Shown: in pieces, positions 22,252-43,491 of the stretch
Numbering within the stretch: position 1 is the stretch's first letter
Layout: every line of letters starts with the position of its first letter
The notes under the pieces: model-generated
The model's input: only the letters and a program-made list of their open reading frames with translations
Database searches by the model: none
Told to the model about the DNA's origin: nothing
Program-made: the position numbers and the translations under genes
Origin: a virus
Taxonomy: Duplodnaviria > Heunggongvirae > Uroviricota > Caudoviricetes
DNA length: 64,000 bases
IMG/VR virus record: IMGVR_UViG_2684623189_000005
Strand: one strand, 5' to 3'

Positions 22252-22253
22252 TG

Positions 22254-27000: not shown

Positions 27001-27326
27001 TATTGACCTCCGGTATTGCGGTACTGCTGTACCACTTCCAGTTTGTTATAAAGCGCGTCCAGTTTGGCCTCAATGACTGTCTGGCCACGGATATAATCCT
27101 CTCGACGGACATAATTCAGCGGTAAATCCGCTTTAAATCGCATAAATTCTTTTTCCAGCTCGCCCCAGTTGGAGGCGGATTGTTGCAGGGCCTGTTCAAG
27201 GGAGGCGAATCGTGCCGCCTGGCGTTCTTCTGTTTTACTGAACAACCATTTGGCGAGCCCTCCCACAAACCCCATGAAGGTGAGCAGAAAACTCACCACC
27301 GTCCAGAATTCAACCTGCAGTGTCAT
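27000..27326 (-). CDS. small membrane protein (lysis accessory?)
   Basis: 108 aa, one N-terminal TM helix; sits at the end of the lysis cassette. Confidence 0.4.
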   Translation of the reverse strand: MTLQVEFWTVVSFLLTFMGFVGGLAKWLFSKTEERQAARFASLEQALQQSASNWGELEKEFMRFKADLPLNYVRREDYIRGQTVIEAKLDALYNKLEVVQQYRNTGGQ

Positions 27327-27975: not shown

Positions 27976-28697
27976 CTGCTGCCTCCCCATGTGAGATATC
28001 GCGGTGCCAGTTCGCGCAGGATGCGCTGCGGATAATGGCGGTTCTCCCGCCAGCTGGCCGCATTGCGTCCGGCATTCACCGTGGCGACATGTCCGAACCA
28101 GCGGGTGCTGTCCAGACCTTTCTGTGATGCAAGCCGCCTGTCCCGTTGTACCCAGCCCAGACCACCGTTATAGCCCGACAGTGTCATGGCCATACGCTCG
28201 CAGTCACTGGCGGCGCTGACACGCTGCCACAGCCAGCGGTCATAGCTGACCAGCGCCCGGATAGCCCATGCCGGATTAAACGGCTCACGACTGCTCTGCA
28301 TCGGTATCAACTGGCTTATCCAGTCGGCAGTGGCAGGCATGAACTGCGCCAGTCCCTGAGCGCCAGCCGGCGAGATCGCATCAGGTCGCCAGCCGCTTTC
28401 CTGATGCAGTTGCGCGGCGAAATCGGCCACCGGCGCAGACAGTCCCCATTCAAGCCGGGCATTACGGATCACATCATCGCGATACTGCAGCGCAGCCTGC
28501 GGAGGTTGTGCTGCGCATGCCTGGCTGAAAAAGCCGCCACACCAGAGCAACATTGCGACAAAGAATACCCATGCCATATGAACCAGAAAGGTCCCGGCGC
28601 GGACTGACAGGCGTTCGGTTCTGATGAAGACCCGAAAGGCTTCGAAAGCCAGTTTCAGGGACATGCATACAATCCAGGTGATCTGCGGCCAGTTCAT
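27957..28697 (-). CDS. endolysin, lytic transglycosylase (SLT domain), possibly signal-anchored
   Basis: ...LHQESGWRPDAISPAGAQGLAQFMPATA... SLT catalytic motif; hydrophobic N-terminus; true start may be the internal Met near 28577. Confidence 0.75.
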   Translation of the reverse strand: MNWPQITWIVCMSLKLAFEAFRVFIRTERLSVRAGTFLVHMAWVFFVAMLLWCGGFFSQACAAQPPQAALQYRDDVIRNARLEWGLSAPVADFAAQLHQESGWRPDAISPAGAQGLAQFMPATADWISQLIPMQSSREPFNPAWAIRALVSYDRWLWQRVSAASDCERMAMTLSGYNGGLGWVQRDRRLASQKGLDSTRWFGHVATVNAGRNAASWRENRHYPQRILRELAPRYLTWGGSSCVASD

Positions 28698-28699
28698 GA

Positions 28700-29050
28700 T
28701 TAAAGCCCCATCGCAACAGCCAGGCAGACCGCTGCAACAATCAGTGCACGGCGGATTAACGCAGCAGAAAACACCAGGTGAAGGCCGGTCTGTACCGGGA
28801 AACGCCCTTCAGCCATCAGCCTGTCGTCATGTTTCAGGTACTGACCGGGACGGGCTTTGGGGAAGAGCGAACGGTCAAGCCAGTAACCCAGCACTGCTGC
28901 CAGCGTGATGAGTGCCAGCTTGTAGATCACAACAGGCAGCTGCTGTGGTGAGACCAGAGCGATGGTGCCCAGCAACAGCACTGAGGTCAGCAGCCAGCCG
29001 CTGAGGCGAGGTTTTTTAACAGGGGGAATGAATTTTTTCAGGTTTTTCAT
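28700..29050 (-). CDS. putative holin (first gene of the late operon)
   Basis: Start at internal Met with a GGAG ribosome-binding site; multiple TM segments; directly upstream of the endolysin. Confidence 0.55.
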   Translation of the reverse strand: MKNLKKFIPPVKKPRLSGWLLTSVLLLGTIALVSPQQLPVVIYKLALITLAAVLGYWLDRSLFPKARPGQYLKHDDRLMAEGRFPVQTGLHLVFSAALIRRALIVAAVCLAVAMGL

Positions 29051-29180
29051 GTGTGTCTCCTCGTTTGGTGGAGACAGCATCACAAATACAGGGCGCAAAG
29101 GATTTTAAAGCGCGTTAAGAGAGCCGGGGATACGGGATGTGCAGGATAAACGATGAATTATTCACAGAGGAGAATACGAT
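29051..29180. promoter_or_regulatory. divergent intergenic region: candidate late (lysis) promoter and promoter of the P-loop gene
   Basis: 130-bp gap between divergently oriented genes. Confidence 0.35.
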
Positions 29181-29657
29181 ATGACGCACACACTGAATCC
29201 GGTCATCACTGTCACTGTGTCCGGTCCTGTGGGCAGCGGTAAAAGTTACGTACTGGCGCGGATAGAAGAGATGGTGAAACAGGAACTCGGAAACAGCGTC
29301 ATTGTCGATGCTGCTGACGTGGAGAATGAGCGCCGTATGAATGGCGAAGATCTGACGACCTGGCAGAAGCCACGGGGTGGCACAGTGATCAGGCTAGAGG
29401 AATACACGGGACAGGGCCTGTTGTCATACGGCGAGGAGCGTATCTGTCGGACGAATGAGCTGCTGGATGTTATATGCCCCACGGGCCGGCAACCCTGGAT
29501 ACTGCCCGATGCACTGCATGCCACCATTGCGGCACTGATGACAGTTTACGATCAGGAGCTGCTCATGAAGGAGTTACGTAAACTCACCGGTCAGCCAACA
29601 GAATGTTGTTCGTCTCCGAAGTACGGCAAACAGGAAAACGCCCCGGATAATCCTTAA
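29181..29657 (+). CDS. small P-loop NTPase (orphan)
   Basis: 158 aa; Walker A GPVGSGKS near the N-terminus, Walker-B-like VIVDAAD; preceded by a GAGGAG ribosome-binding site. Confidence 0.6.
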   Translation: MTHTLNPVITVTVSGPVGSGKSYVLARIEEMVKQELGNSVIVDAADVENERRMNGEDLTTWQKPRGGTVIRLEEYTGQGLLSYGEERICRTNELLDVICPTGRQPWILPDALHATIAALMTVYDQELLMKELRKLTGQPTECCSSPKYGKQENAPDNP

Positions 29658-29694
29658 GATACCTCCTGAACAGAAACAGCCCTGAAGGGCTGCA

Positions 29695-30285
29695 CTAAAA
29701 AAAGAAGTGTATTATTGCCCAAACAGCTATAACGATGATTCCCAGCCCAAGAGCCGATTCTAACTTATCTTTGGCAGTCATTTTTACTGTTGTAGCGGGC
29801 GCAGGTAAGTCTTGCTGCTGTGGATTTTCTGTTAGTTGTTTACGAGAAGAAACATCGCCCCTATTAGTTTGCTTCATGTTGATTACAGATGCGTTATGGG
29901 CATTATCAGCAGCAATTGACTGAAGTTTTACAAAAGTTTTTGAATCTGTTTTAGCCAGAAGTAACCTATTTCCCGTAAACATTGCCTTAAAAGTGATAGT
30001 TTTTTTCGTCTTGTCCGCCGCACCAAGCAAACCTCCAATGACCAACCCTGCACCACCAAAGATTAATCCACCAAGCAAACCTGCGCCTGCCGCCTTACCT
30101 ATACGGCTTTCCTCTTCACTATCCGCAAGTTCAATCGATAAAAGCTCTTCTTTCAGATTTAATACAATATTTTCAGGAAAGCCTTGTTTTGGTTTTTTGG
30201 CAAACACGATGGTACCGAACCCCATGCTTGCCCACCCTTTAGGAAAACTTCCTGCGATAACCTGAATCCCTGCCATGTTCATCAC
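29695..30285 (-). CDS. glycine-zipper membrane protein
   Basis: 196 aa; GKAAGAGLLGGLIFGGAGLVIGGLLGAA glycine-zipper helix plus C-terminal TM LGLGIIVIAVWAIIHFFF. Confidence 0.6.
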   Translation of the reverse strand: MMNMAGIQVIAGSFPKGWASMGFGTIVFAKKPKQGFPENIVLNLKEELLSIELADSEEESRIGKAAGAGLLGGLIFGGAGLVIGGLLGAADKTKKTITFKAMFTGNRLLLAKTDSKTFVKLQSIAADNAHNASVINMKQTNRGDVSSRKQLTENPQQQDLPAPATTVKMTAKDKLESALGLGIIVIAVWAIIHFFF

Positions 30286-30366
30286 CTTTTACATTAAAAT
30301 TTCAGAACGCAGCATGATGCCGCCTTTGTCTTTTTTCTGATCCCATGGTAATTCAGCTGTTATTTT

Positions 30367-31353
30367 CTATTTAAGAATAAAACGGTATTTACTGTCAGGA
30401 GTGCTTTGCTGATCAAGTAGCAGTGAACGACATGGAGCAGTCAAAACCCGAGCATAACTACCATCAGGGCTTATGTTAATGTAACAAACCTTGCCCTTAA
30501 CACTATAATTTTCGGGGACGGATGCCTTTGCTGATACAGTAAATTTAAGGGTATGCCAGCCCGTTTTTTGCTTGTAGCTTGAAACCGAATGGAAATCATC
30601 TGAGTACTTATTTAACCCTAGAAACATGCTGCGCAGTGCGGGGATGGAATCTTCTATTATTTTATCGTTGGTTTTAATGTTAAAAACGCTGGTTTCAGTA
30701 GAAGCTACTGCTTTGGCATTTCCCCATTTACCAGCGAACACAATCATTCCCACGAAAAATATTGCTACAAGAACTAACACTCCCCCCAACACTACTACAT
30801 GAGGCTTCCGGCTTCTGGTTGGTACAGTTGCGACTGATTTTGCACCGCTTTCCGATGGAGGTGATAGAGTTTTACTCTCATCACGAATATTCAGCAGATC
30901 ATCAAAATAACCAAACACAGCCTGCAACTGCTCTTTGTCTAGGCCTTTAAGATGGGTTGTACCGAAATGCTTCAGACAGTATCTGTCACGGTCAAGACGA
31001 TACCCAGGGTCAGTAAGCGCCATTATTTTGCTGACCAGAAGATTACAGTCCTTCATATTCTGGATCTGTTGTGCATATCTCTGAAGGATCTCAACCGCAC
31101 CATGATAATCAGCCGCAGTCATTTCATTAACTGTTTTGGTATTAAGTTTCGTGTGGATCGTCATCCATAGCTCGCGCTTACTTTCCCCCAGATCAACCAA
31201 TTCATCCATCAATCTGTGTAAATCGCGTTTTTGCAGCAACGAAATTGGTTGCTGGGCCGAAGGAAGTATGTCAGCAGAATAGTTATGAATGGTAACATCA
31301 CCGCTGACAACGTTACCCACATCCCCGTTAACTGTTTGCTTCTCTTTACTCAT
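30367..31353 (-). CDS. bitopic membrane protein apparently translationally coupled to the prophage repressor
   Basis: 328 aa; start overlaps the repressor stop; one central TM (VVVLGGVLVLVAIFFVGMIVFAG) between a cytoplasmic N-domain and a Cys-containing periplasmic C-domain. Confidence 0.6.
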   Translation of the reverse strand: MSKEKQTVNGDVGNVVSGDVTIHNYSADILPSAQQPISLLQKRDLHRLMDELVDLGESKRELWMTIHTKLNTKTVNEMTAADYHGAVEILQRYAQQIQNMKDCNLLVSKIMALTDPGYRLDRDRYCLKHFGTTHLKGLDKEQLQAVFGYFDDLLNIRDESKTLSPPSESGAKSVATVPTRSRKPHVVVLGGVLVLVAIFFVGMIVFAGKWGNAKAVASTETSVFNIKTNDKIIEDSIPALRSMFLGLNKYSDDFHSVSSYKQKTGWHTLKFTVSAKASVPENYSVKGKVCYINISPDGSYARVLTAPCRSLLLDQQSTPDSKYRFILK

Positions 31354-31811
31354 CTTCTCTTGGTATTTTTGTTCATTATTCCACCTGTTCCTATGGTTAC
31401 GTTACCTTTGATAACATTCCCCAGAACATCTCCATGAATAACCTGTTCCGCCCGTTCTCTGGAGGAGCCAGTAGTCAAGGCCGACAAAACTGAACCTTTG
31501 ACCTGTAATGGTGCCTGCCGGTAGTGCTGCAGTAACTCCATTTCATCACGTGATAAAGTTATACCTGATGACTCCCCGGTAAGAATGAACTGTACATTGG
31601 CCCCAATTCTTGCAAAGGCTGCAAGTAACTCACCTCCGGGAACAGCAACCCCTCGTTCATATTTCCCCCACATTTCTCTTGAAACGCCACAAAGGGCTGC
31701 TACTTCAGCCTGCTTGAGTGATAACCGCGAACGCTCAGCTTTGAACCGCGACGCGCAAAGAGAATCAAAATTCACATAAACCTCATTGACAATGAGAACA
31801 ATAGTTCTCAT
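31350..31811 (-). CDS. prophage repressor (XRE-family HTH)
   Basis: 153 aa; HTH ...LSLKQAEVAALCGVSREMWGKYERG...; divergent from the ner-like gene. Confidence 0.75.
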   Translation of the reverse strand: MRTIVLIVNEVYVNFDSLCASRFKAERSRLSLKQAEVAALCGVSREMWGKYERGVAVPGGELLAAFARIGANVQFILTGESSGITLSRDEMELLQHYRQAPLQVKGSVLSALTTGSSRERAEQVIHGDVLGNVIKGNVTIGTGGIMNKNTKRR

Positions 31812-31861
31812 AATCTATCACATATAAAACAAACATCATTGCATCAACAAAGGAGACAACA
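31812..31861. promoter_or_regulatory. 50-bp divergent repressor/early-operon control region
   Basis: Only non-coding sequence between the divergent repressor and ner-like genes. Confidence 0.5.
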
Positions 31862-32050
31862 ATGACTTCCGAACAAGTTAAAAATCTCTTCCGTCAGCGT
31901 GGTATCACGTTTACCCGCTGGGCCGAAGAACACGGCTACAGCCGCAATGAGGTCTATCGTGTTCTCAATGGACAGACCAAAGCTCGTTACGGCAAAGCCC
32001 ATGAAATTGCCGTAAAACTGGGATTAAAACCCACGTCAAATGCGGCATAA
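31862..32050 (+). CDS. ner: Ner-like DNA-binding protein
   Basis: 62 aa; ...ITFTRWAEEHGYSRNEVYRVLNGQ... Ner/Nlp-type helix; first gene of the early operon. Confidence 0.7.
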   Translation: MTSEQVKNLFRQRGITFTRWAEEHGYSRNEVYRVLNGQTKARYGKAHEIAVKLGLKPTSNAA

Positions 32051-32102
32051 ATTTTCCACATATGCAACAGGTTATCACATATTGCAAAAATGGAAATGTG
32101 AC

Positions 32103-32411
32103 ATGAGTAAAGTAAATATTTCCAGTTCTGGGACCCGCATCCTACGTGTACTCAAAGCTCTACGCGGTCATGCTCTGAACGGTGTTTCTAACGGTGAACT
32201 GGCATCAGCCCTGGGGGAGTCCCCAGCGAATATCAATCGAGCACTTAATACCCTTATTGAAGAGGGACTGGCCATGAAATTAGAGAACGGACGTTTCGCA
32301 CCGGGAATCCAGTTACTACAGATCGCCATGGCTCACAGTCACGAGATGGCGCGTGCACAGGATCGTATTAACGAAATCAACCAACGAGTTATTTCAGGTA
32401 GTCGTTTGTAA
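32103..32411 (+). CDS. putative winged-helix DNA-binding protein
   Basis: ~103 aa from internal Met; ...ILRVLKALRGHALNGVSNGELASALGESPANINRALNTLIEEGL... Confidence 0.5.
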   Translation: MSKVNISSSGTRILRVLKALRGHALNGVSNGELASALGESPANINRALNTLIEEGLAMKLENGRFAPGIQLLQIAMAHSHEMARAQDRINEINQRVISGSRL

Positions 32412-32421
32412 GGAGTAATCA

Positions 32422-33336
32422 ATGGGACGCACCAAATCACCCGTTAACACTGAACTGAATGTTGAGGTTCCGCTGTCAGATAACATCAATGTCAATTTGA
32501 ACGCTATGACACAGCATCGCATGGAAATTATGCAGCAGTTTGGTGATGGACTGCCTTATGAACGTGATCGCATTGTTCACGAAGCACGTTTTTATATGGC
32601 GCAGAGTGCTGAATCTATGCTGGAAGCGGGTAAGCGGCTGATCATCTTAAAAGAAAATGAGCCACACGGTGATTTTACAAACATTTTAGAAAATGAACTC
32701 GGACTTGCACCACAAGTTGCTCGCCGCATGATGCAAGCCAGTATGAAGTTTTTGGGAGAAGGTGATGAGCCAACAAAACGCTCAACGTTGAGCGTTTTGG
32801 GGAAAGCCAAACTGTACGACCTGATGGTTCTGGATAATGAAGAACTTGATGAATTGGCCGACGGCGGCACAGTTGCCGGCCTGACGCTTGACGACGTTGA
32901 TCGCATGTCAGTACGTGAATTGCGTCAGGCCCTGCGCGAAGCGCGCGAAACCAACGCAGCACAACAGCGCGTACTCGCTGACAAAAATGAAAAAATAGAC
33001 TCACTCTCCACCAGACTGGAGAAGAAATCCCGTATTCAGCCGCCTGAGCCTGATGAAGAGGTTAAGAAGCTGCGGGCGGAAGTGACAGCATTAGCGGTTG
33101 AGGCGGAATCTGCTATCGCCGTTCGACTGTCCAGCGCTTTTGAGACGCTGTGCGCATATTGTGCTGAAAACATGATTGATACCCCCAGAGACTTCATGGC
33201 AGGCCTGGTCTGTCAACTGGAAAGCACAGCGCGTAGCCTGCGCTCCACATTTGACCTGCCGGATGAGCCAACAGGCAATGCCGCGCCTTCATGGCTGACT
33301 GAGCCGACGCCACAGATTAACGGGCTGGAGGCATAA
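32422..33336 (+). CDS. hypothetical early protein with coiled-coil segment
   Basis: 304-aa ORF between ner and the transposase; no family recognised with certainty. Confidence 0.5.
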   Translation: MGRTKSPVNTELNVEVPLSDNINVNLNAMTQHRMEIMQQFGDGLPYERDRIVHEARFYMAQSAESMLEAGKRLIILKENEPHGDFTNILENELGLAPQVARRMMQASMKFLGEGDEPTKRSTLSVLGKAKLYDLMVLDNEELDELADGGTVAGLTLDDVDRMSVRELRQALREARETNAAQQRVLADKNEKIDSLSTRLEKKSRIQPPEPDEEVKKLRAEVTALAVEAESAIAVRLSSAFETLCAYCAENMIDTPRDFMAGLVCQLESTARSLRSTFDLPDEPTGNAAPSWLTEPTPQINGLEA

Positions 33337-33339
33337 CCA

Positions 33340-35109
33340 ATGAATGCTGCCCTGACTGAACGACTGGTTTATGTCGCCCGCGCGGCACGTGACGCGGGGC
33401 ATGGTAAACGCGGTGCAATATACGACGCTGCCTGTGCTGAACTTGGCATGTCCCGCGCCACTCTGCTGCGCAGGCTGAAGGAGGTCTCTGTGACTGATAA
33501 ACGCAAAAAACGCGCTGATGCCGGACGCAGCGCCCTGACCCGCGACGAAGCCGCGCTGATATCTGCCACACTGCGTGAGGCCACCCGCAAGAACGGTAAA
33601 CGCCTCTATTCCATCGCAGATGCAGTGGAAACCCTGCGGGCTAACGGCTTTATCACCGCAGGCAGAACAGATGAAACCACCGGTGAGTTTTTCCCGTTGT
33701 CTGAAGATGCCATCAGCCGTGCTCTGCGTAACTATGGCCTGCACCCGGAACAACTGGATGCTCCTGCACCGCATACCGAAGTGGCCAGTCTGCACCCCAA
33801 TCATGTCTGGCAGATTGACGCCTCACTCTGCACGCTTTACTACCTGAGCAATGGACATAAAGGGCTGCAGGTGATGGACAGCGCGAAGTTCTACAAGAAC
33901 AAGCCCGCTAACCTTGCCCGTATCGCCAGTGACCGCGTGTGGAGTTACGAGATTACCGACCATGCCAGCGGCTGGATTTACGTTGAGTATGTGACGGGCG
34001 CGGAATCAGGTGAGAACCTGTGTTCTGTGCTTATCAACGCCATGCAGGAGCGTGGCGGCGCAGACGTGCTGCACGGCGTGCCAAAAATACTCTATCTCGA
34101 CCCCGGCTCGGCAAACACCGCGGGTATGACGAAAAACATGTGCCGCTCACTGGGCATCGACCTGATAGCGCACAAGCCGCATAACGCCCGCGCCACCGGA
34201 CAGGTGGAAAAGGCGCGGGACATTATCGAACGCAAGCTGGAGCCGGGTCTGAAGTTCCGGCCGGTTCACAGTCTGGAAGAACTCAATGCGCTGGCCGCGA
34301 AATGGCGCAGCCACTTTAACGCCACGGCTGTTCACAGCCGCCACGGTAAAACCCGCACGGATATCTGGCTGAAGATTACTGCTGAGCAGCTGAAAAAAGC
34401 GCCTTCCGTTGAGGTATGTCGTGAACTGGCTGTGGCGGCACCAGAACTCCGCAAAGTCACGCCAAAACTTCGTGTCTCGTTCCGGGGCACTGAATTTGAC
34501 GTATCAACGGTACCGGGCGTACTGGTCGGTGAAAAACTGATGATTACCCGTAACCCGTGGCGCAGCGATGTGGCACAGGTGGTTCTGACCGGTGAGGACG
34601 GCCACGAGACGTTCTTCCTGGTCGAAGAAGTCAGAAAGAACGAGTTTGGCTTTGCTGAAGGCGCGGCGGTATTTGGCGAAAGTTACAAAGCCCTGCCGGA
34701 AACCCCGGCGCAGATGGCGGCAAAAGAAACCGAAGCGCTGGTCACCGGTACAGACAACGCCGCAGATGCAGCTGCCGCACGCAAGGCGAAGGCGCTGCCG
34801 TTCGGCGGGCGGCTTGACCCATATAAACATATTGATGACGCCACACTTCCGGCCTATATGCCGAAGCGAGGTCAGGCCTCTGACGTACGCGGGCCGCGCA
34901 CTGAACAACGTCCCATGACTCATGTGGAGGCCGCGAAAGCCCTGCGCGATAAGTTCAGCGCCGACGGCCTTACCTGGACGCCGGAACATTACCGCCAGTT
35001 AACGGCACAGTATCCGGACGGCGTACCGGAAGCCGCACTGGATGAAGTCATGGCCACGCTGACCACGCCGGCCCGCAGCAGCGTTATCAGCATTGTTAAC
35101 GGCAACTGA
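33340..35109 (+). CDS. DDE transposase (Mu A-like function; integrase-core fold)
   Basis: 589 aa; N-terminal HTH, central ...HVWQIDAS... and ...ILYLDPGSANTAG... DDE-type core. Confidence 0.85.
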   Translation: MNAALTERLVYVARAARDAGHGKRGAIYDAACAELGMSRATLLRRLKEVSVTDKRKKRADAGRSALTRDEAALISATLREATRKNGKRLYSIADAVETLRANGFITAGRTDETTGEFFPLSEDAISRALRNYGLHPEQLDAPAPHTEVASLHPNHVWQIDASLCTLYYLSNGHKGLQVMDSAKFYKNKPANLARIASDRVWSYEITDHASGWIYVEYVTGAESGENLCSVLINAMQERGGADVLHGVPKILYLDPGSANTAGMTKNMCRSLGIDLIAHKPHNARATGQVEKARDIIERKLEPGLKFRPVHSLEELNALAAKWRSHFNATAVHSRHGKTRTDIWLKITAEQLKKAPSVEVCRELAVAAPELRKVTPKLRVSFRGTEFDVSTVPGVLVGEKLMITRNPWRSDVAQVVLTGEDGHETFFLVEEVRKNEFGFAEGAAVFGESYKALPETPAQMAAKETEALVTGTDNAADAAAARKAKALPFGGRLDPYKHIDDATLPAYMPKRGQASDVRGPRTEQRPMTHVEAAKALRDKFSADGLTWTPEHYRQLTAQYPDGVPEAALDEVMATLTTPARSSVISIVNGN

Positions 35110-35119
35110 GGAGGGATAC

Positions 35120-36286
35120 ATGCTGGTACTGAAGCAGCAACTGAAAGAGGCCCGTATTCCACAGGCGGTGGTGGCGAGAGCTGTCGATGTTTCTGAGGCC
35201 ACGCTGGCCCAGATTGTGAATCATAACGCGTGGCCCCGCACCAGCCCCGGAGAAGTGCGCCGGCGTCTTGCGTCCTGGCTGGAAAGTCAGGGGATTGATA
35301 CAACGAAGAGTTTTGATGCTGTACAGGGCGCGGCCACGCCCCGTACAGCGGGTACCACAGATAAAACGAGCCTCAGTGAGGAAGAGAATATGTTACTCAA
35401 AAAACAGGTGTTATTTCCAGCAACCAAAAAAGCGTTTGGTCTTTTCCGTGACCCGTTCGCCGACGAAGCCATGCAGGGTTCTGATGATGTGTTCACCACT
35501 CCGGACATTCGCTACGTGCGTGAGGCGCTGTACCAGACAGCCCGTCATGGTGGGTTTATGGCCGTCATCGGTGAGTCCGGTGCGGGTAAATCCACGCTGC
35601 GCCGTGACCTGACTGAACGTATCAACCGCGAGAATGCGCCGGTGATTGTTATCGAGCCATACATCATCGCTATGGAAGACAACGATGTGAAAGGGAAAAC
35701 CCTGAAGGCAGCAGCGATTGCCGAAGCCATTATCAGTACCATCGCACCACTGGAAAGCATCAGACGCAGTCAGGACGCCCGCTTTCGCCAGCTGCATCGC
35801 GTCCTGAAAGACAGCAGCCAGGCGGGGTTCAGCCACGTTCTGGTGATTGAGGAGGCCCACAGTCTGCCCATTCCGACACTGAAACACCTCAAACGCTTTT
35901 TTGAGCTGGAGTCCGGTTTCAAAAAACTGCTGTCCATCGTGCTGATTGGCCAGCCGGAACTGGCGACAAAACTGTCTGAACGCAATATGGAAGTCCGTGA
36001 AGTCGTTCAGCGCTGTGAGGTGGTCGAACTTCTGCCTCTGGACAATAACCTTGAAGAGTTTCTGACGTTCAAACTGCAACGGGCCGGTAAACAACTGACG
36101 GACATTATGGACGCCAGCGCAGTGGATGCCATACGTGCCCGCCTGAGCAATCCGGGAAGTCATCGTAAAAATATGGTCAGCCTGCTGTATCCGCTGGCCG
36201 TCAGTAACCTGGTAATAGCCGCCATGAATCTGGCCGCTGAAATCGGGGTTCCACAGGTCAACGCTGACGTTGTCAAAGGGGTTTAA
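35120..36286 (+). CDS. transposition ATPase (MuB/TniB-like AAA+)
   Basis: Walker A GESGAGKST, Walker B HVLVIEEAH; GAGGAGGG ribosome-binding site before the ATG at 35120. Confidence 0.8.
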   Translation: MLVLKQQLKEARIPQAVVARAVDVSEATLAQIVNHNAWPRTSPGEVRRRLASWLESQGIDTTKSFDAVQGAATPRTAGTTDKTSLSEEENMLLKKQVLFPATKKAFGLFRDPFADEAMQGSDDVFTTPDIRYVREALYQTARHGGFMAVIGESGAGKSTLRRDLTERINRENAPVIVIEPYIIAMEDNDVKGKTLKAAAIAEAIISTIAPLESIRRSQDARFRQLHRVLKDSSQAGFSHVLVIEEAHSLPIPTLKHLKRFFELESGFKKLLSIVLIGQPELATKLSERNMEVREVVQRCEVVELLPLDNNLEEFLTFKLQRAGKQLTDIMDASAVDAIRARLSNPGSHRKNMVSLLYPLAVSNLVIAAMNLAAEIGVPQVNADVVKGV

Positions 36287-36288
36287 TA

Positions 36289-36558
36289 ATGAAATCCACC
36301 ACAGGTATCAACCAGCAAATCAGCAAAGTGCAGTCAGCCATTATGGCGCTTAAGGCGACGAACACGGATGTACAAAGCATCACCATCAGGGGTAACAAAC
36401 CTGTCATCCGCGTTTCCCGGAGTGCGCATTGCATGCGCATGCTTGAGCAGGGAAAGGCCTGTTATCTGTATACCGGACATGACCACAGGGGATATTTCCG
36501 TCAGGGCGTTTTCGAACTGCACGGCTGTCGCGTCGTGTGGCCGGAATCTTTGTGGTAA
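36289..36558 (+). CDS. hypothetical early protein
   Basis: 89-aa ORF tightly following the B-like gene. Confidence 0.4.
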   Translation: MKSTTGINQQISKVQSAIMALKATNTDVQSITIRGNKPVIRVSRSAHCMRMLEQGKACYLYTGHDHRGYFRQGVFELHGCRVVWPESLW

Positions 36559-36585
36559 TCAGCACAACTGGAGAAATCATAAAAA

Positions 36586-37116
36586 ATGGCAAAAAGTACA
36601 AAAGGTGCAAAACGTATCAAGGCCGCAGCAGCACTCTGGGTGCCGGGGACACGTGAAGAGGTCATTGAGGGAATCAGACTACTCGGTGACGCACAACGTG
36701 AACTGGTCAGGGCTGAAACAGAAATGAATGACGCCATTGGCGATATCACCGCACGTTATGCCCCGCTCACCGAGAGCCTGAAAAAACGCATGGCCGAACT
36801 GCAGTCCGGTATTCAGACATGGTGTGAGGCACACCGTGATGAACTGACCGGCAACGGGAAGGTGAAGTTCGCTAACCTCACCACCGGCGAGGTGCAGTGG
36901 CGAAACCGTCCGCCATCAGTCAGTATCCGTGGGGCGGATAATGTTATTGAATTACTGAGACGTCTGGGGCTTGAGCGCTTTATTCGTGTAAAAGAGGAAA
37001 TAAATAAAGACGCTATCCTGAATGAAAAAGAGGCCGTGAAAAATATTCCCGGTATTTCCATTAAAAGCGACATTGAGGATTTTTCAATAATTCCTTTTGA
37101 GCAGGATGTGCAGTAA
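36586..37116 (+). CDS. gam: Gam-like host-nuclease inhibitor (DNA end-binding)
   Basis: 176 aa; ...RFIRVKEEINKDAILNEKEAVKNIPGISIKSDIEDFSIIPFEQ... matches Mu Gam as recalled. Confidence 0.8.
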   Translation: MAKSTKGAKRIKAAAALWVPGTREEVIEGIRLLGDAQRELVRAETEMNDAIGDITARYAPLTESLKKRMAELQSGIQTWCEAHRDELTGNGKVKFANLTTGEVQWRNRPPSVSIRGADNVIELLRRLGLERFIRVKEEINKDAILNEKEAVKNIPGISIKSDIEDFSIIPFEQDVQ

Positions 37117-37213
37117 ACACACCACGTTAATTATTTAATAAAAACATTTTCTTTTTTATTCCGGCGTCAGCGCCGCGGGCTTCTGCACGCCGGAAACAGA
37201 GGAGAATTAAATC

Positions 37214-37408
37214 ATGATATTTAAATGTATTCAGTGCGAGAGGGATATAACAGCCCTGCGTTTTCACAGCGCCATCGCCGTGATGTCCGGTAAATACCAC
37301 ATCCCTGCGGTACGCGTCACCCTGGTCTGCCCGTACTGCAGCCAGCATTTTTCGGCAGACGTGCCCGTCATGGAATTCTCCCGCCCTGACAGGGAGGACT
37401 CGCAATGA
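37214..37408 (+). CDS. small zinc-ribbon protein
   Basis: 64 aa with CxxC ... CPYC pairs. Confidence 0.45.
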   Translation: MIFKCIQCERDITALRFHSAIAVMSGKYHIPAVRVTLVCPYCSQHFSADVPVMEFSRPDREDSQ

Positions 37409-37677
37409 TTACCCCACAGGAAGCACGACAGCGCACCCGAACCCTTGTTGAACACTATGTCAACGAGTGTGAATGCCGCGACCTCACCGATGTGAAGCAC
37501 GTCCTGACGGCGCTAATCAGCATGACCGCTCAGGCCATTGTGGCGACCAACGGAAAGGCGGCTGCCCTGCAGGTACTGGTGAACACACTCACCCACACGG
37601 CAGAGCATGAGGTGCCGTACCGGATGGAAACCACTGCAGAAGGCGGCCTGCACATCACCGTCAGCCGGAAGCACTGA
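37405..37677 (+). CDS. hypothetical early protein
   Basis: 90-aa ORF, start/stop coupled. Confidence 0.4.
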   Translation: MITPQEARQRTRTLVEHYVNECECRDLTDVKHVLTALISMTAQAIVATNGKAAALQVLVNTLTHTAEHEVPYRMETTAEGGLHITVSRKH

Positions 37678-37686
37678 GGGCGCGGC

Positions 37687-37983
37687 ATGACACGGAACAC
37701 CATACTCACCCGCACCGCCCTCTACCGTCTGGCCCTGCAGCGTTTCGGGCCGGACGCACAGGCCCTGAAACTGACAGAAGAGGCCGCTGAACTGGCGGCC
37801 AGTGCTGCCCGCAATCTGAACGGACAGGGCAGCGAAAGTGACCTCGCGGCAGAGCTGGCAGACGTGGAAATCATGACAGAGCAATTGCGCCTTCAGGGGA
37901 TGGACCGGCTGATTGACTTCCACAAACAGAAAAAACTGGAACGTCTGGCTGCACGACTGGGCGTGATTTACACGAACGAGTAA
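37687..37983 (+). CDS. MazG-like nucleotide pyrophosphohydrolase (small, all-alpha)
   Basis: 98 aa; EEAAELAASAA ... ELADVEIMTEQL motif pair typical of MazG/HisE-like NTP-PPases. Confidence 0.55.
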   Translation: MTRNTILTRTALYRLALQRFGPDAQALKLTEEAAELAASAARNLNGQGSESDLAAELADVEIMTEQLRLQGMDRLIDFHKQKKLERLAARLGVIYTNE

Positions 37984-37997
37984 CCGGGAGGCATTCA

Positions 37998-38213
37998 ATG
38001 GCTGACATACTCAGGGAAATCACCGCATGGACACTGATTCTTACTGGCCTGGCGACATGCCTCAGTGCGGGGGCAGCCCTGGCTGCCCTGCTGATGCACA
38101 TAACAACACAGTGGTTATGGGAAAAGCTTAAAGCAGCATACAGCCTGAAAGAGCTGTCCGACGCTGTCCGGGCATGGAAACGGCAGAAAAATACCGGAGA
38201 TACAGAACAATGA
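37998..38213 (+). CDS. small membrane protein
   Basis: 71 aa with one TM helix. Confidence 0.4.
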   Translation: MADILREITAWTLILTGLATCLSAGAALAALLMHITTQWLWEKLKAAYSLKELSDAVRAWKRQKNTGDTEQ

Positions 38214-38893
38214 CAGACCAGAATAAACACATTGAGAAACTGAAAAAGTTGCTGGCGCTGGCCGCATCCGGCAACCCGCACGAGGCCGCTCTGGCACTGC
38301 GCCGAGCCCGTAAACTGATGGATGTTCACGGCATCACACATTCCGACATTGCTATGAGTGATATTGATGAAACCATCAGTCATTACTGGCCGACAGGCAG
38401 TCTCCGTCCACCGCGCTACATGCTGGGCCTGATGAACATCATCCGCGAGGCATTTGGTGTTAACTCCATCATTCACCCCGGCACGCATCCGTCTGTGGGG
38501 TTCTACGGTAACCGGGAACGAGCGGCACTGGCTGCGTACACCTGGGAAGTGCTGGTCCGCCAACTGAAAAAGGCGCGTCAGCAGTATATCAGCGCACAGA
38601 ACAAAAGAATAAAAAACGCCACCCGTACCAGCCGTGGAAACCAGTTTGCTGAAGGCTGGGTACTGGCCGTTATCAGTGAAATACAGTCCTTTGCCCTGAC
38701 CGATGATGAGCGTGAACTGATGCAACAGTGGCTGGAACATAAATACCCGCAAACGCAAACCACCAGGGCGCGTAAACCGGGAAGAAGCCGCAATGGCGAC
38801 GCCTCGCGCTATGCGGGGTTTCGTGAAGGGCAGAACGTCAGACTGCACCGCCCGGTCAGTGGGCAGGAACAACAGAAACTGGAGGCCAGATGA
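38210..38893 (+). CDS. hypothetical early protein (phage DUF-type)
   Basis: Start at Met preceded by GGAGA; N-terminal KIEKLKKLLALAASGNPHEAALALRRARKLM motif. Confidence 0.5.
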   Translation: MTDQNKHIEKLKKLLALAASGNPHEAALALRRARKLMDVHGITHSDIAMSDIDETISHYWPTGSLRPPRYMLGLMNIIREAFGVNSIIHPGTHPSVGFYGNRERAALAAYTWEVLVRQLKKARQQYISAQNKRIKNATRTSRGNQFAEGWVLAVISEIQSFALTDDERELMQQWLEHKYPQTQTTRARKPGRSRNGDASRYAGFREGQNVRLHRPVSGQEQQKLEAR

Positions 38894-39109
38894 TTACGCT
38901 ATCAGGTAACAGCCGGAAATTAAAAGCCTGCCGAATATCTGCCAGATACCTTTTTGCCCGCGCCTTTTTTAAGAACGTCAGGCCGGGGATCACAATTGGT
39001 GTTATTGCCGGACGCGAACAGGTTGAAAAATACATGTCAGGTGCATGGTGGAATAACGACCCTGTCATTGCTGCCCGTAATATTCATATCAGTTGGGGGG
39101 ATATTCAGA

Positions 39110-39325
39110 ATGACGGCTGAATCTGTTGTATGTGCCCTGTTCTGGTATTGTTTTGCCGGTTGGTGTACTGCTGAACTGCACCGCCGTTCAGGGTTTTATT
39201 CACGTTACAGTGGTGCCGGCTACTGGATTAGCTGGTCGGTGATGTTCCTGTGCTGGCCTGTGGCGCTTCCTTTATATGTCGATTATATCGGTGGCGCAGG
39301 TAAAAGGAGCAACGATGATGACTAA
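39110..39325 (+). CDS. small Trp/Cys-rich membrane protein
   Basis: 71 aa with two hydrophobic helices. Confidence 0.4.
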   Translation: MTAESVVCALFWYCFAGWCTAELHRRSGFYSRYSGAGYWISWSVMFLCWPVALPLYVDYIGGAGKRSNDDD

Positions 39326-39767
39326 ACAACGTCTTATCCAGCTCATTCATATTGCCCGTAATGAACTGGGTATGGATGAAGACACCTACCGCCAGATGTT
39401 ACAGGGGCTGACCGGTAAAGCCTCAACCAAAGGAATGGATACCACACAACTAAACTGCGTGCTGGAATCCATGAAAAGGAAAGGCTTTCGCGTTAAGCCT
39501 GCCGGAAAAGCCAGCTCCGGTTTACCGCTGGATAACCATCCGCAGTCCAGGAAAATCCGTGCGCTATGGCTTGAAATGGCTGCTGCCGGCATTGTTCGTG
39601 ACCGTTCAGAAAATGCATTAGCGCGGTGGATCAAGCGGGAAACGGGCATCAGCGCCCTGCGCTGGCTCAATACTGAACAGGCAAGCAGTGTTATTGAGAA
39701 ACTGAAGAAGTGGCAGCACAGAGCTGCGGGAGTAAAACATGAGCGACCTGAATCAGTTTCGAAGTAA
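39315..39767 (+). CDS. GemA-like regulatory protein (Mu gp16 family)
   Basis: ~150 aa; ...ALWLEMAAAGIVRDRSENALARWIKRETGISALRWL...; AAGGAG ribosome-binding site. Confidence 0.55.
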   Translation: MMTKQRLIQLIHIARNELGMDEDTYRQMLQGLTGKASTKGMDTTQLNCVLESMKRKGFRVKPAGKASSGLPLDNHPQSRKIRALWLEMAAAGIVRDRSENALARWIKRETGISALRWLNTEQASSVIEKLKKWQHRAAGVKHERPESVSK

Positions 39768-40128
39768 AGGGCCGGAACTCCTGGTGGAACTGGCACAGCA
39801 TACCTCTGAGACCGTTCGCGAGATTATTGATATTGAGCCCGCAATTGCCGACCAGATTGGTCAGGCCGTCGCGAACCGCATGATGCAGGTCTGGGGCGGG
39901 CAAAACGTTTATTTCCCGATGGGCATGGTATGGAAGGTCAGTCAGCGCGACCGGGAAATCTTCAGGGAGTTTAACGGACGTAACCACCATGAACTGGCCC
40001 GCAAATTTGGTGTTTCGCTTCAGTGGGTCTACAGCGTGGTTAAGCGGGTAAGAAAAGAAGAACTGGATCGGATGCAGGGCAAGCTATTTGCTGATGAACC
40101 CGATGTAGATACGGAGAAAAAAGAGTAA
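39739..40128 (+). CDS. mor: Mor/C-family transcription activator
   Basis: 129 aa; C-terminal HTH ...NHHELARKFGVSLQWVYSVVKRV...; last gene before the right end. Confidence 0.75.
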   Translation: MSDLNQFRSKGPELLVELAQHTSETVREIIDIEPAIADQIGQAVANRMMQVWGGQNVYFPMGMVWKVSQRDREIFREFNGRNHHELARKFGVSLQWVYSVVKRVRKEELDRMQGKLFADEPDVDTEKKE

Positions 40129-40157
40129 TATCTGCAATCAGGCTGGAGCGAGTTCTG

Positions 40158-43491
<3,334 letters not shown>

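What the first reader, a model, noticed from the sequence alone, without database searches (positions are those of the whole stretch)
36289..39325. Early-region accessory cluster with candidate anti-defence functions
Between the MuB-like ATPase and Mor lie Gam (end-binding nuclease inhibitor), a 64-aa double-CxxC zinc-ribbon protein, a 98-aa MazG-like NTP pyrophosphohydrolase, two small membrane proteins and several unknowns. This is the region where transposable phages are known to carry host-takeover genes. A MazG-like enzyme could degrade alarmone or signalling nucleotides used by host defences.
Basis: inference. Interest (0 to 1): 0.5.

Follow-up and report, generated by a model that had tools for sequence, protein, structure and literature searches.

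The report
Accessory early genes of Mu-like prophage
This stretch is the variable block of nine small early genes in a common Mu-like transposable prophage of E. coli: one gene is a known DNA-end protector (Gam) and one is a real MazG-type nucleotide pyrophosphatase, but no counter-defence role beyond Gam's is shown.

Summary
Window 36289-39325 holds nine tightly packed + strand genes between a MuB-like AAA ATPase and GemA/Mor. They lie in a 37.2-kb BcepMu-like transposable prophage (window 3079-40289) inserted in tail gene J of a lambdoid prophage. All nine match phage protein families and are under purifying selection.

- **Gam:** a secure assignment (PF07352, E 1e-40).
- **64-aa protein:** four invariant cysteines, so a zinc ribbon.
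- **227-aa DUF2786/DUF7168 protein:** also found on conjugative plasmids. Its function is unknown.

Across species the MuB-to-Mor interval varies from 0.4 to 4.75 kb while its flanks stay conserved, and the inner genes evolve faster. That fits an accessory, host-interaction module. The same region occurs in about 12% of complete E. coli genomes and is already annotated.

The anti-defence reading is supported by homology for Gam only and is untested for the rest. Cyclic-nucleotide signals are chemically unlikely MazG substrates. This is an ordinary member of a known kind, of modest interest.

The parts
36289..36558 (+). p1, 89 aa, HI_1482 family (named after the gene in this position in the Haemophilus FluMu prophage). 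Function unknown.
   Evidence: PGAP name on an identical copy. phrog_2041, E 3e-36. No Pfam or PDB match. pN 0.19-0.24 against pS about 0.8. Invariant C48, C80, G35, P38, W84.
36586..37116 (+). Gam, 176 aa, Mu Gam-like DNA-end-binding host-nuclease inhibitor.
   Evidence: PF07352, E 9.9e-41, 139.6 bits against a cut-off of 28.3, full-length match. phrog_491, E 5.5e-73. dN/dS about 0.1.
37159..37195 (+). Conserved 37-nt GC-rich hairpin, preceded by a T-rich tract, in the Gam-p3 spacer just 5' of the p3 ribosome-binding site. Role unknown; possibly an mRNA processing or stabilising element, or a protein-binding site.
   Evidence: RNA fold of 37105-37225: -33.5 kcal/mol, z -4.2. Nearly base-for-base conserved in about 70 related loci, including ones where the upstream gene is DUF3164 rather than Gam. 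96% of cells paired and 2 of 15 pairs with compensatory changes. Not terminator-shaped on either strand.
37214..37408 (+). p3, 64 aa, zinc-ribbon protein (CxxC...CxxC).
   Evidence: phrog_3401, E 1.6e-40. C5, C8, C39 and C42 invariant in 29 distinct orthologues. Directly adjacent to, or fused with, the MazG-like gene in relatives. dN/dS 0.15-0.27.
37405..37677 (+). p4, 90 aa, function unknown. A cassette present in the E. coli type and absent from many relatives.
   Evidence: phrog_3691, E 2.7e-55. Absent in KP12-type loci, where p3 abuts p5. dN/dS 0.17-0.40. No Pfam or PDB match.
37687..37983 (+). p5, 98 aa, divergent MazG/HisE-type all-alpha NTP pyrophosphohydrolase. Substrate unknown.
37998..38213 (+). 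p6, 71 aa, single-pass small membrane protein. A cassette missing from some E. coli copies.
   Evidence: phrog_3958, E 1.1e-41. Hydrophobic helix at residues 12-36. Absent in L027, L033, L036-L038, L040 and others. dN/dS about 0.4.
38210..38893 (+). p7, 227 aa, DUF2786 plus DUF7168 protein: an N-terminal helical hairpin and a beta-alpha-beta-beta-alpha core. Function unknown.
38890..39120 (+). p8, 76 aa, function unknown (equivalent to STY1594 of S. Typhi CT18).
   Evidence: phrog_3681, E 4e-54. Note in the KP12 record. Present or absent among relatives. dN/dS 0.11-0.17.
39110..39325 (+). p9, 71 aa, probable small membrane protein. Two alleles only about 42% identical occur within E. coli prophages.
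   Evidence: phrog_6436, E 1e-14. Two aromatic-rich hydrophobic stretches, maximum KD19 1.51. Allele split. pN 0.27-0.42 against pS 0.74-0.91.
35120..36286 (+). Upstream flank: MuB-like AAA ATPase (ExeA family).
   Evidence: PF13401 AAA_22, E 3.6e-20. PGAP name.
39318..40128 (+). Downstream flank: GemA (39318-39767) and Mor (39739-40128).
   Evidence: PF06252, E 1.6e-40. PF08765, E 1.3e-43.
31786..31814 (+). Early-promoter-like site (TTGACA-17-CATAAT) facing the early operon and back-to-back with the HTH repressor gene.
   Evidence: 11 of 12 consensus match, the best site in 31000-40400. Repressor HTH_31 at 31350-31811 on the minus strand.
3079..40289 (.). The whole BcepMu-like transposable prophage (TG...CA ends, 6-bp target duplication CCCCAC) that contains the cluster.
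   Evidence: Homology with the TUM1586 copy stops at 40289. CCCCAC sits at 3073-3078 and 40290-40295. The J reading frame resumes across the junction. The related phage PhiKM is classified as Bcepmuvirus.

Best explanation
The segment is the accessory ('semi-essential') early module of a BcepMu-like transposable prophage of E. coli.

**Expression.** The nine genes lie head-to-tail, several with overlapping stop and start codons, between the transposition genes (A, MuB-like) and the regulators GemA and Mor. They are most likely transcribed with those genes from the early promoter next to the repressor gene. They would then be made in the first minutes after infection or induction, before late genes (inferred from layout and from Mu).

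**Role.** They condition the host rather than carry out transposition.
- Gam binds the ends of the linear phage DNA and shields them from RecBCD and other exonucleases. This is established for Mu Gam and rests on homology here.
- p5 is a small MazG/HisE-type pyrophosphohydrolase with an intact metal-binding site. It probably works with the zinc-ribbon protein p3, which is adjacent to it or fused with it in relatives. It most likely removes a nucleotide that carries a phosphoanhydride bond: a non-canonical (d)NTP or an alarmone such as (p)ppGpp. This would keep replication and host physiology permissive (inferred).
- p6 and p9 are small membrane proteins. p1, p4, p7 and p8 are conserved proteins of unknown activity that probably bind host factors or nucleic acid (inferred).

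**Modularity.** Relatives gain, lose or swap cassettes between conserved flanks.
For: **Identity of the element.** It has TG...CA ends, a 6-bp duplication, and a different insertion site in another strain. It is 98% identical to the isolated phage PhiKM, a Bcepmuvirus. It occurs in 636-639 of 5,426 complete E. coli genomes, with up to 3 copies per genome.

**Operon layout.** One strong promoter-like site lies at 31786-31814. Promoter-like and terminator-like sites within the scanned interval 31000-40400 are no more frequent than in shuffled sequence. No Rfam family matches.

**Real genes.** PHROG hits and non-synonymous change far below synonymous change in all nine (dN/dS 0.07-0.41 where dS is not saturated).

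**Gam.** PF07352, E 1e-40.

**p5.**
- Conserved EExxE-20-ExxD motif.
- A family of 10,432 representative sequences, 8 of 72 sampled members hitting Pfam MazG.
- Profile hit to Bacillus MazG 5ie9, E 0.008.

**p3-p5 link.**
- The two genes are adjacent with overlapping stop and start in KP12-type loci.
- Fused forms exist: P0026, P0036 and L047.
- 7 of 37 longer family representatives carry paired CxxC motifs beside the MazG domain.

**Accessory behaviour.**
- The MuB-to-Mor interval is 0.39-4.75 kb in 46 species-level loci. p5 is in 17, p7 in 21, and either Gam or DUF3164 occupies one slot.
- In KP12 the transposase and MuB are 94% identical and Mor 92%, but p1 is 69%, p3 55% and p5 71%.
- Within E. 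coli, MuB is at least 99% identical in 546 of 636 genomes, whereas p5 reaches that in only 121 of 620.

**Precedent.** A phage MazG-like protein has been reported to act against defence.
Against: - Nothing was tested for activity here, and early timing is inferred from layout only.
- p5 itself does not reach any Pfam threshold (best: PRA-PH, E 0.047). Foldseek matches are weak (best E 0.19).
- The AF2 model shows three helices with the last one very long, not a closed four-helix bundle.
- p5 is not specifically related to the probable Atd1.
- The p3-p5 fusions hinge on a homopolymer A7/A8 tract and could be sequencing errors.
- Within E. coli the block is nearly fixed in this prophage lineage, with p5 in 620 genomes against MuB in 636. 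It is therefore not a hypervariable island at that scale.
- No gene matches a known defence-related family.
Confidence: 0.6

Rival explanations
1. The MazG-like p5, with p3, is a dedicated counter-defence enzyme of the Atd1 kind. It hydrolyses (p)ppGpp or another immune-related nucleotide and so prevents abortive infection. The surrounding unknown genes are likewise inhibitors of host immune systems.
For: - Atd1, a small phage MazG-like protein, hydrolysed ppGpp and relieved TIR-STING and retron-TIR toxicity.
- The probable Atd1 (86 aa) has the same size and the same EExxE...ExxD layout as p5.
- p5 is early, accessory (17 of 46 species-level loci) and evolves faster than the core genes.
- It sits beside Gam, an accepted RecBCD countermeasure.
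Against: - The profile comparison of the p5 family with the probable Atd1 is not significant (E 0.11).
- No nucleotidyltransferase or other marker used to find Atd1 lies nearby.
- Cyclic signals lack the bond that MazG enzymes cut, and Atd1 did not act on c-di-GMP.
- No experimental data exist for this family.
- The Atd1 work seen here is a preprint.
Confidence: 0.2
2. p5 is a house-cleaning enzyme that serves phage replication, not immunity. It would remove dUTP, oxidised or otherwise non-canonical dNTPs, or rebalance dNTP pools during replicative transposition, as other small MazG-like enzymes do.
For: - The closest solved structures are generic small MazG/HisE enzymes: SSO3215, HisE, integron iMazG, YpjD and RS21-C6/DCTPP1.
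- The family is very large and not confined to Mu-like phages: 10,432 representatives, with distant members in unrelated phage contexts (L082-L084).
- From established knowledge, house-cleaning is the default role proposed for this superfamily.
Against: - The gene is dispensable in many close relatives that replicate the same way: absent from L097, L098 and L105, where MuB is 93-94% identical.
- It evolves faster than the replication genes. This is less expected for a plain metabolic helper.
Confidence: 0.3
3. Apart from Gam, the block mainly encodes host-killing, cell-division or superinfection-exclusion functions and regulators, like kil, cim and related genes of the Mu early region or Tip and Aqs1 of Pseudomonas Mu-like phages. 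It would not encode inhibitors of immune systems.
For: - The position is equivalent to that of Mu kil and the other semi-essential early genes (own knowledge of Mu genetics).
- Two small membrane proteins are present.
- p7 homologues also lie on conjugative plasmids among small unidirectional genes that include H-NS-like and nuclease genes. This fits an establishment or regulatory role as well as an anti-defence one.
Against: - No DNA-binding HTH domain was detected in any of the nine proteins.
Confidence: 0.25
4. Several of the small ORFs are not genes, only chance reading frames in a spacer-like region.
For: - Six of the nine are under 100 aa and lack any Pfam match.
- The PhiKM record even annotates an opposite-strand ORF over p3.
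Against: - Every ORF hits a PHROG family.
- All show far fewer non-synonymous than synonymous changes against orthologues 40-80% identical.
- Key residues are invariant.
- Genes are packed with overlapping stops and starts.
Confidence: 0.02

Closest known systems
Semi-essential early region of phage Mu (kil, gam and neighbours, up to gemA and mor)
   Same: - Same position and strand: downstream of the transposase and B genes, upstream of GemA and Mor.
- Contains a Mu-type Gam.
- Made of small, mostly uncharacterised, dispensable-looking genes (Mu genetics from own knowledge).
   Different: - Apart from Gam, GemA and Mor, none of the genes was matched to a Mu gene here. tblastn of p1 and p5 found only three to five phage records, none of them Mu.
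- The B-like protein is ExeA/AAA_22 type.
- The late genes are on the opposite strand, as in BcepMu.
BcepMu-like prophages and phages of Enterobacterales (Escherichia phage PhiKM, Klebsiella phage KP12, Phi06_2974 B, the S. Typhi CT18 STY159x prophage)
   Same: - PhiKM is 98.4% identical over 94% of the region.
- KP12 has the same backbone and order: p1, p3, p5, p8, p9, GemA, Mor.
- Identical copies lie in many E. coli genomes.
   Different: - KP12-type elements carry DUF3164 in place of Gam.
- They lack p4 and p6, and have a different 128-aa gene in place of p7.
- No functional data were found for any of these genes; searches for DUF2786, DUF3164 and transposable-phage anti-defence turned up nothing functional.
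Atd1, the MazG-like anti-TIR-defence protein of Pectobacterium phage PcCB7V
   Same: - Small single-domain phage protein (probable Atd1, QQG33500.1, 86 aa) with the EExxE...ExxD layout.
- Same superfamily.
   Different: - No significant profile similarity to the p5 family (E 0.11).
- Different phage type (a 146-kb lytic Certrevirus) and different neighbourhood, next to a nucleotidyltransferase.
- That QQG33500.1 is Atd1 is my inference from its annotation and position.
Small stand-alone MazG/HisE enzymes with solved structures (SSO3215 1vmg, M. tuberculosis HisE 3c90, integron iMazG 2q5z/2q73, B. subtilis YpjD 2gta, Bacillus MazG 5ie9, mouse RS21-C6 2a3q)
   Same: - About 90-115 residues and all-helical.
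- Acidic metal-binding motif on two helices.
- Profile hit to 5ie9 at E 0.008.
   Different: - Sequence similarity is below Pfam thresholds for p5 itself.
- The substrates of these relatives differ from one another, so none predicts the substrate of p5.
DUF2786/DUF7168 proteins of conjugative plasmids (for example pAb-G7-2 of Acinetobacter baumannii)
   Same: - Full-length homologues of p7 at 26-37% identity, with the same two-domain architecture.
- They lie among small same-strand genes of unknown function.
   Different: - Plasmid rather than phage context.
- No known function in either setting.
- Whether the plasmid genes sit in the leading region was not established.

Membership tests
Mu Gam family (PF07352) - for the 176-aa protein | Full-length profile match above the curated threshold | tested here: met
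   139.6 bits against a cut-off of 28.3, E 9.9e-41, residues 23-169 on profile positions 1-148 of 149. phrog_491, E 5.5e-73.
Mu Gam family (PF07352) - for the 176-aa protein | Binds double-stranded DNA ends and protects them from RecBCD and other exonucleases | not testable with these tools
   Needs end-protection or RecBCD-dependence assays.
MazG/HisE all-alpha NTP pyrophosphohydrolase superfamily - for the 98-aa protein p5 | Metal-binding motif EExxE, then 12-28 residues, then ExxD | tested here: met
   E31-E32-x-x-E35, then 20 residues, then E56-x-x-D59. E31 and D59 are invariant, and E32, E35 and E56 are at least 90% conserved in 72 relatives 32-55% identical.
MazG/HisE all-alpha NTP pyrophosphohydrolase superfamily - for the 98-aa protein p5 | Significant match to a curated MazG, MazG-like or PRA-PH profile | tested here: inconclusive
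   p5 itself reaches only PRA-PH at E 0.047, below the cut-off. However, 8 of 72 family members hit PF03819 (best E 2.2e-5), 2 hit PF12643 and 1 hits PF01503. phrog_2245 'nucleoside triphosphate pyrophosphohydrolase' matches at E 2.8e-34. The family profile hits Bacillus MazG 5ie9 at E 0.008.
MazG/HisE all-alpha NTP pyrophosphohydrolase superfamily - for the 98-aa protein p5 | All-helical bundle fold like solved members | tested here: met
MazG/HisE all-alpha NTP pyrophosphohydrolase superfamily - for the 98-aa protein p5 | Hydrolyses the alpha-beta phosphoanhydride bond of a nucleoside triphosphate or related nucleotide | not testable with these tools
   Needs an enzyme assay.
Atd1-type anti-defence MazG | Specific sequence relationship to Atd1 beyond the shared superfamily motif | tested here: not met
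   hhalign of the 72-sequence p5 family against the probable Atd1 (QQG33500.1): probability 0.5%, E 0.11, 35 aligned columns.
Atd1-type anti-defence MazG | Hydrolyses (p)ppGpp and relieves TIR-effector toxicity | not testable with these tools
   Reported for Atd1 only.
Accessory (semi-essential) early region of Mu-like transposable phages | Lies between the transposition genes and GemA/Mor, on the same strand, with no evident internal promoter or terminator | tested here: met
   Gene order and domains. Promoter-like and terminator-like sites in 31000-40400 are no more frequent than in shuffles, and the single strong promoter-like site is at 31786-31814.
Accessory (semi-essential) early region of Mu-like transposable phages | Gene content varies among relatives while the flanks are conserved | tested here: met
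   46 MuB-anchored loci from different species have an interval of 0.39-4.75 kb with many alternative cassettes. 77 p5-anchored viral contigs show presence or absence of p4, p6, p7 and p8.
Accessory (semi-essential) early region of Mu-like transposable phages | Genes are dispensable for transposition and lytic growth under laboratory conditions | not testable with these tools
   Needs deletion mutants.
Zinc ribbon - for the 64-aa protein p3 | Two CxxC pairs conserved across the family | tested here: met
   C5, C8, C39 and C42 are invariant in 29 distinct orthologues with minimum identity 30%. Pfam gives only sub-threshold zinc-finger hits.
KH (type I) nucleic-acid-binding domain - considered for the core of p7 | beta-alpha-alpha-beta-beta-alpha fold with a GXXG loop between the first two helices | tested here: not met

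The most novel reading that the evidence does not exclude
The zinc-ribbon protein p3 and the MazG-like p5 form a two-part counter-defence module that recurs widely in phages, either as adjacent genes or fused. It would destroy an immune-related nucleotide that carries a phosphoanhydride bond. Candidates are (p)ppGpp or (p)ppApp, chain-terminating ddhNTPs made by bacterial viperins, or dUTP and dITP produced by deaminase-type defences. If so, a family with more than ten thousand representative sequences would be a new class of anti-defence enzyme. The DUF2786/DUF7168 protein, shared with conjugative plasmids, would be a second establishment factor for incoming DNA.
Probability: 0.15. Interest if true: 0.6.

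Novelty: new member of a known kind. Interest (0 to 1): 0.3.

Why it matters
This prophage family sits in about one in eight complete E. coli genomes and is active: a near-identical phage has been isolated, insertion sites differ between strains, and some genomes carry several copies. Its early genes are therefore expressed in many clinical and commensal strains whenever it moves.

If the MazG-like enzyme, its zinc-ribbon partner or the DUF2786 protein disarm host immunity, they would be compact tools. They would also be markers for finding further counter-defence genes in transposable phages and plasmids.

As things stand, the result is mainly a clean annotation:
- It corrects one point: cyclic-nucleotide signals are not plausible MazG substrates.
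- It narrows the experiments worth doing.

Tried and rejected
- **PADLOC scan** of all ten proteins of the block: no hits. The library models defence proteins, not anti-defence ones, so this says little.
- **NCBIfam scan:** only sub-threshold noise.
- **PDB sequence searches:** single-sequence searches for p5, p7, p1 and p4 and close-family profiles for p5 and p7 gave nothing meaningful. Only the wide 72-sequence p5 profile reached MazG structures.
- **Rfam** on 29000-41000 at E 0.1 or better: nothing.
- **Promoter and terminator scan:** counts no higher than in shuffles.
- **p5 family against the probable Atd1:** not significant.
- **KH-domain reading of p7:** rejected as membership because the helix-GXXG-helix element is missing.
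- **Pfam on alternative cassette genes** from other species: only DUF3164, DUF5420 and an HU-like protein were recognised, and none is a known anti-defence family.
- **Pfam on longer p5-family proteins** to find informative fusions: no domains apart from weak zinc-ribbon-like hits.
- **Literature searches** for DUF2786, DUF3164, transposable phage with anti-defence, and BcepMu in E. coli: no functional study of these genes.
- **Spurious-ORF idea:** rejected by the excess of synonymous over non-synonymous change.
- **Low-GC cargo genes** beside the repressor, by PADLOC and Pfam: nothing.
- **First dN/dS script:** timed out and was rewritten.

Full report
**What is there.** The ORF list for 33000-42000 and the RefSeq gene calls on a 100% identical copy in E. 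coli TUM1586 agree. Nine + strand genes fill 36289-39325:
- p1: 36289-36558, 89 aa
- Gam: 36586-37116, 176 aa
- p3: 37214-37408, 64 aa
- p4: 37405-37677, 90 aa
- p5: 37687-37983, 98 aa
- p6: 37998-38213, 71 aa
- p7: 38210-38893, 227 aa
- p8: 38890-39120, 76 aa
- p9: 39110-39325, 71 aa

Several stops and starts overlap. Upstream lie an rve-type transposase (33340-35109) and an AAA_22/ExeA-type MuB-like ATPase (35120-36286). Downstream lie GemA (39318-39767) and Mor (39739-40128).

**Context.** The window is E. coli chromosome. The region is 100% identical in many strains and present in 639 of 5,426 complete genomes, with up to three copies per genome. It is 98.4% identical to the isolated Escherichia phage PhiKM, classified as a Bcepmuvirus.

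Aligning the window with the TUM1586 copy, which sits next to lpdA, shows homology ending at 40289 (...TAATCA). The other end begins with TG at 3079. CCCCAC flanks both ends, at 3073-3078 and 40290-40295. The element is thus a 37.2-kb transposable prophage with the BcepMu layout: early genes on one strand and late genes on the other. Here it has landed 22 codons before the stop of tail gene J of a lambdoid prophage. The J frame resumes across the junction.

A near-consensus promoter (TTGACA-17-CATAAT, 31786-31814) faces the early genes, back-to-back with an HTH repressor gene. Within the scanned interval 31000-40400, promoter-like and terminator-like sites are no commoner than in shuffled sequence. 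No Rfam family matches. The simplest reading is one early operon from the repressor-proximal promoter through Mor. This is inferred from layout and from Mu, not shown.

**Are the small ORFs genes?** Yes.
- All nine hit PHROG families, with E from 1e-14 to 1e-78.
- Against orthologues 40-80% identical, every one shows far fewer non-synonymous than synonymous differences. dN/dS is 0.07-0.41 where dS is not saturated. For p1 and p9, pN is 0.19-0.42 against pS of 0.74-0.91.
- An opposite-strand ORF annotated over p3 in the PhiKM record is therefore the wrong call.

**Gam.** The match to PF07352 is full-length at E 9.9e-41, and phrog_491 'Mu Gam-like end protection' matches at E 5.5e-73. By established knowledge of Mu Gam, this is a Ku-like protein that binds DNA ends and blocks RecBCD and other exonucleases. 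It is the one gene here with an accepted counter-nuclease role.

**The 64-aa protein p3.** Pfam gives only sub-threshold zinc-finger hits. However, C5, C8, C39 and C42 are invariant in 29 distinct orthologues down to 30% identity. The zinc-ribbon description holds.

**The 98-aa protein p5.** Several searches gave weak or no results:
- Alone, p5 fails every curated threshold (PRA-PH E 0.047; hisE E 0.035).
- It has no PDB sequence match.
- A profile of its close enterobacterial relatives also finds nothing in the PDB.

Four lines of evidence nevertheless place it in the MazG/HisE all-alpha NTP pyrophosphohydrolase superfamily:
1. phrog_2245 'nucleoside triphosphate pyrophosphohydrolase' matches at E 2.8e-34, and current PGAP gives the same name.
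2. A whole-library profile search finds 10,432 representative relatives, 1,885 of them at E 1e-10 or better, mostly 90-110 aa. In 72 of these, at 32-55% identity, E31 and D59 are invariant and E32, E35 and E56 are at least 90% conserved. This is the EExxE-(20)-ExxD metal-binding signature (close family).
3. 8 of those 72 hit Pfam MazG directly (best E 2.2e-5), 2 hit MazG-like and 1 hits PRA-PH. The wide profile reaches Bacillus MazG 5ie9 (E 0.008), integron iMazG 2q73 (0.058) and YpjD 2gta (0.15), aligned over the motif.

The conclusion is a divergent but genuine member with a complete catalytic motif. The substrate cannot be read from the sequence.

**Is p5 an anti-defence enzyme?** A preprint reports that Atd1, a MazG-like protein of Pectobacterium phage PcCB7V, hydrolyses ppGpp (Km about 50 uM). 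It relieves TIR-STING and retron-TIR toxicity and does not act on rNTPs or c-di-GMP (10.1101/2022.06.09.495361).

I located the probable Atd1 in MW367417. It is QQG33500.1, 86 aa, annotated 'phosphoribosyl-ATP pyrophosphatase', two genes from a nucleotidyltransferase. Its identity as Atd1 is my inference. It has the same motif layout, but the comparison with the p5 family is not significant (hhalign E 0.11).

The precedent therefore shows what a small phage MazG can do. It does not show that p5 is its relative.

On chemistry, MazG-type enzymes cut the alpha-beta phosphoanhydride bond. Cyclic oligonucleotide messengers contain only phosphodiester bonds.

**A link between p3 and p5.**
- In Klebsiella-type relatives the two genes are adjacent with overlapping stop and start and no p4 between them.
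- At that junction five loci read GGC-A7-TGA, while one (L047) has A8. The extra base fuses the two into a 161-aa protein. The same fusion appears as P0026 and P0036.
- Among 37 longer representatives of the p5 family, 7 carry paired CxxC motifs next to the MazG domain.

The fusions may be homopolymer sequencing errors. The recurrent pairing nonetheless suggests the two proteins act together (inference).

**The 227-aa protein p7.** It carries DUF2786 (E 4.8e-11) and DUF7168 (E 2.1e-26). The AlphaFold model (pLDDT 84.6) has an N-terminal helical hairpin, a beta-alpha-beta-beta-alpha core and further helices.

Full-length homologues occur on 282 plasmids, 226 of them conjugative and mostly Acinetobacter. 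In pAb-G7-2 the gene lies in a same-strand run of small unknown genes that also includes an H-NS-like gene and a thermonuclease gene. A protein shared by the early region of a transposable phage and by conjugative plasmids may help incoming DNA establish itself. That is speculation.

**The remaining genes.**
- p6 has one clear transmembrane helix.
- p9 has two weaker hydrophobic stretches.
- p1 belongs to the HI_1482 family. tblastn finds it in only three phage records.
- p4 and p8 have no informative match.

**Behaviour across relatives.** Two samples were examined.
- *Eighty IMG/VR contigs found through p5.* Of these, 77 are the same kind of early region. p4, p6, p7 and p8 are each present or absent, and p9 has two alleles only about 42% identical.
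- *Forty-eight loci found through the MuB-like protein, one genome per species.* Both anchors could be located in 46 of them. The MuB-to-Mor interval ranges from 0.39 kb (Lonsdalea) to 4.75 kb (Eikenella). p5 is present in 17 of the 46, p7 in 21 and Gam in 12. A DUF3164 protein occupies the Gam slot in 19, never together with Gam. Many other small unknown cassettes occur.

Flank and interior diverge at different rates. In KP12 the transposase and MuB are 94% identical and Mor 92%, but p1 is 69%, p3 55% and p5 71%.

Inside E. coli the block is nearly fixed: p5 is in 620 genomes against 636 for MuB. It is also more polymorphic. p5 is at least 99% identical in 121 of 620 genomes, against 546 of 636 for MuB. 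This pattern fits an accessory module that interacts with a changing host. It does not by itself say 'anti-defence'.

**An unannotated element inside the finding.** The 97-nt Gam-p3 spacer holds a T-rich tract followed by a 37-nt GC-rich hairpin at 37159-37195, just 5' of the p3 ribosome-binding site.
- The RNA fold has a z-score of -4.2.
- The element is conserved almost base for base in about 70 loci. These include ones where the upstream gene is DUF3164 and p3 is only 55% identical.
- 96% of cells pair, and two of 15 pairs show compensatory changes.
- It is not shaped like a terminator on either strand.
- Its conservation exceeds that of the neighbouring genes, so it is probably functional. 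Possible roles are an mRNA processing or stabilising site, or a protein-binding site. Which one is unknown.

**Verdict.**
- The block is the accessory early module of a BcepMu-like prophage.
- Gam is a bona fide end-protection protein.
- The MazG-like call is right at superfamily level.
- A counter-defence role for p5 or the unknowns is only a reasonable hypothesis, with one preprint precedent in a different subfamily.

The sequence is common, already annotated in RefSeq, and of a well-known kind. The points of some interest are the p3-p5 pairing, the Gam/DUF3164 alternation, the phage-plasmid distribution of p7 and the conserved hairpin.

Noticed in passing
window 3073-3078, 3079-40289, 40290-40295; J gene 43491 down to 40290 and 3078 down to about 3010 (minus strand): The Mu-like prophage is inserted 22 codons before the stop of tail gene J of a lambdoid prophage. 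It has a 6-bp target duplication (CCCCAC) and TG...CA ends. The 1077-aa 'J' ORF therefore ends in prophage sequence, so the lambdoid prophage carries a J gene with an altered C-terminus.
   Followed up: partly
window 37159-37195 (with T-rich tract 37140-37158): A 37-nt GC-rich hairpin lies in the Gam-p3 spacer. It is conserved almost base for base in about 70 related loci, more than the flanking genes, with two compensatory pair changes. It is not terminator-shaped and its function is unknown.
   Followed up: partly
related loci L003 5110-5721; L090-L100, L105, L106, L127, L128, L131, L133, L134 (slot after p1): In relatives the Gam position is occupied either by Gam (12 loci) or by a DUF3164 protein of about 203 aa (19 loci), never both. 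This suggests DUF3164 is a functional substitute for Gam. No functional literature on DUF3164 was found.
   Followed up: partly
L047 5800-6282; L003, L049, L050, L061, L068 at the p3/p5 junction; proteins P0026, P0036: The p3 stop and p5 start overlap in a GGC-A7-TGA tract. An A8 variant fuses the zinc ribbon and the MazG-like domain into one 161-aa protein. This could be a sequencing error, natural polymorphism or a slippage site.
   Followed up: partly
proteins P0012, P0030, P0031 (169 aa): Some enterobacterial p5 homologues carry an extra C-terminal domain of about 70 aa (motif ...LPRRELLEDWCGAVP...) of unknown nature.
   Followed up: no
L088 (A. baumannii plasmid pAb-G7-2) 7001-7690, and 281 other plasmids: Full-length homologues of the DUF2786/DUF7168 protein p7 are common on conjugative plasmids, especially in Acinetobacter. 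They lie within runs of small same-strand genes of unknown function.
   Followed up: partly
window 29181-31353: A low-GC stretch (43-48%, against 54-60% for the rest of the prophage) lies between the late genes and the repressor. It carries ORFs of 158 aa (+ strand), 196 aa and 328 aa (minus strand) with no Pfam hit and no PADLOC hit below E 0.007. This looks like lysogen-expressed cargo of unknown function.
   Followed up: partly
window 3157-3858 (minus strand), 3801-4304 and 4315-4788 (+ strand), 5409-7046 (minus strand): A serine-recombinase-like ORF (N-terminus MLIGYIRVSTNDQ..., resembling Gin/Hin invertases by eye) lies next to two + strand ORFs. Their sequences repeat the C-terminal part of the minus-strand tail-fibre gene. 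This looks like an invertible host-range segment as in Mu. No profile search was run on it.
   Followed up: no
L089 (K. pneumoniae plasmid OW969859.1) 1491-8707: A different Mu-like element sits on an IncFIB/IncU plasmid. From gene lengths and order it appears to carry a transposase, a MuB-like gene and a DUF3164-sized gene (all annotated only as hypothetical), plus a p7 homologue found by tblastn. It also carries the conserved hairpin sequence.
   Followed up: no
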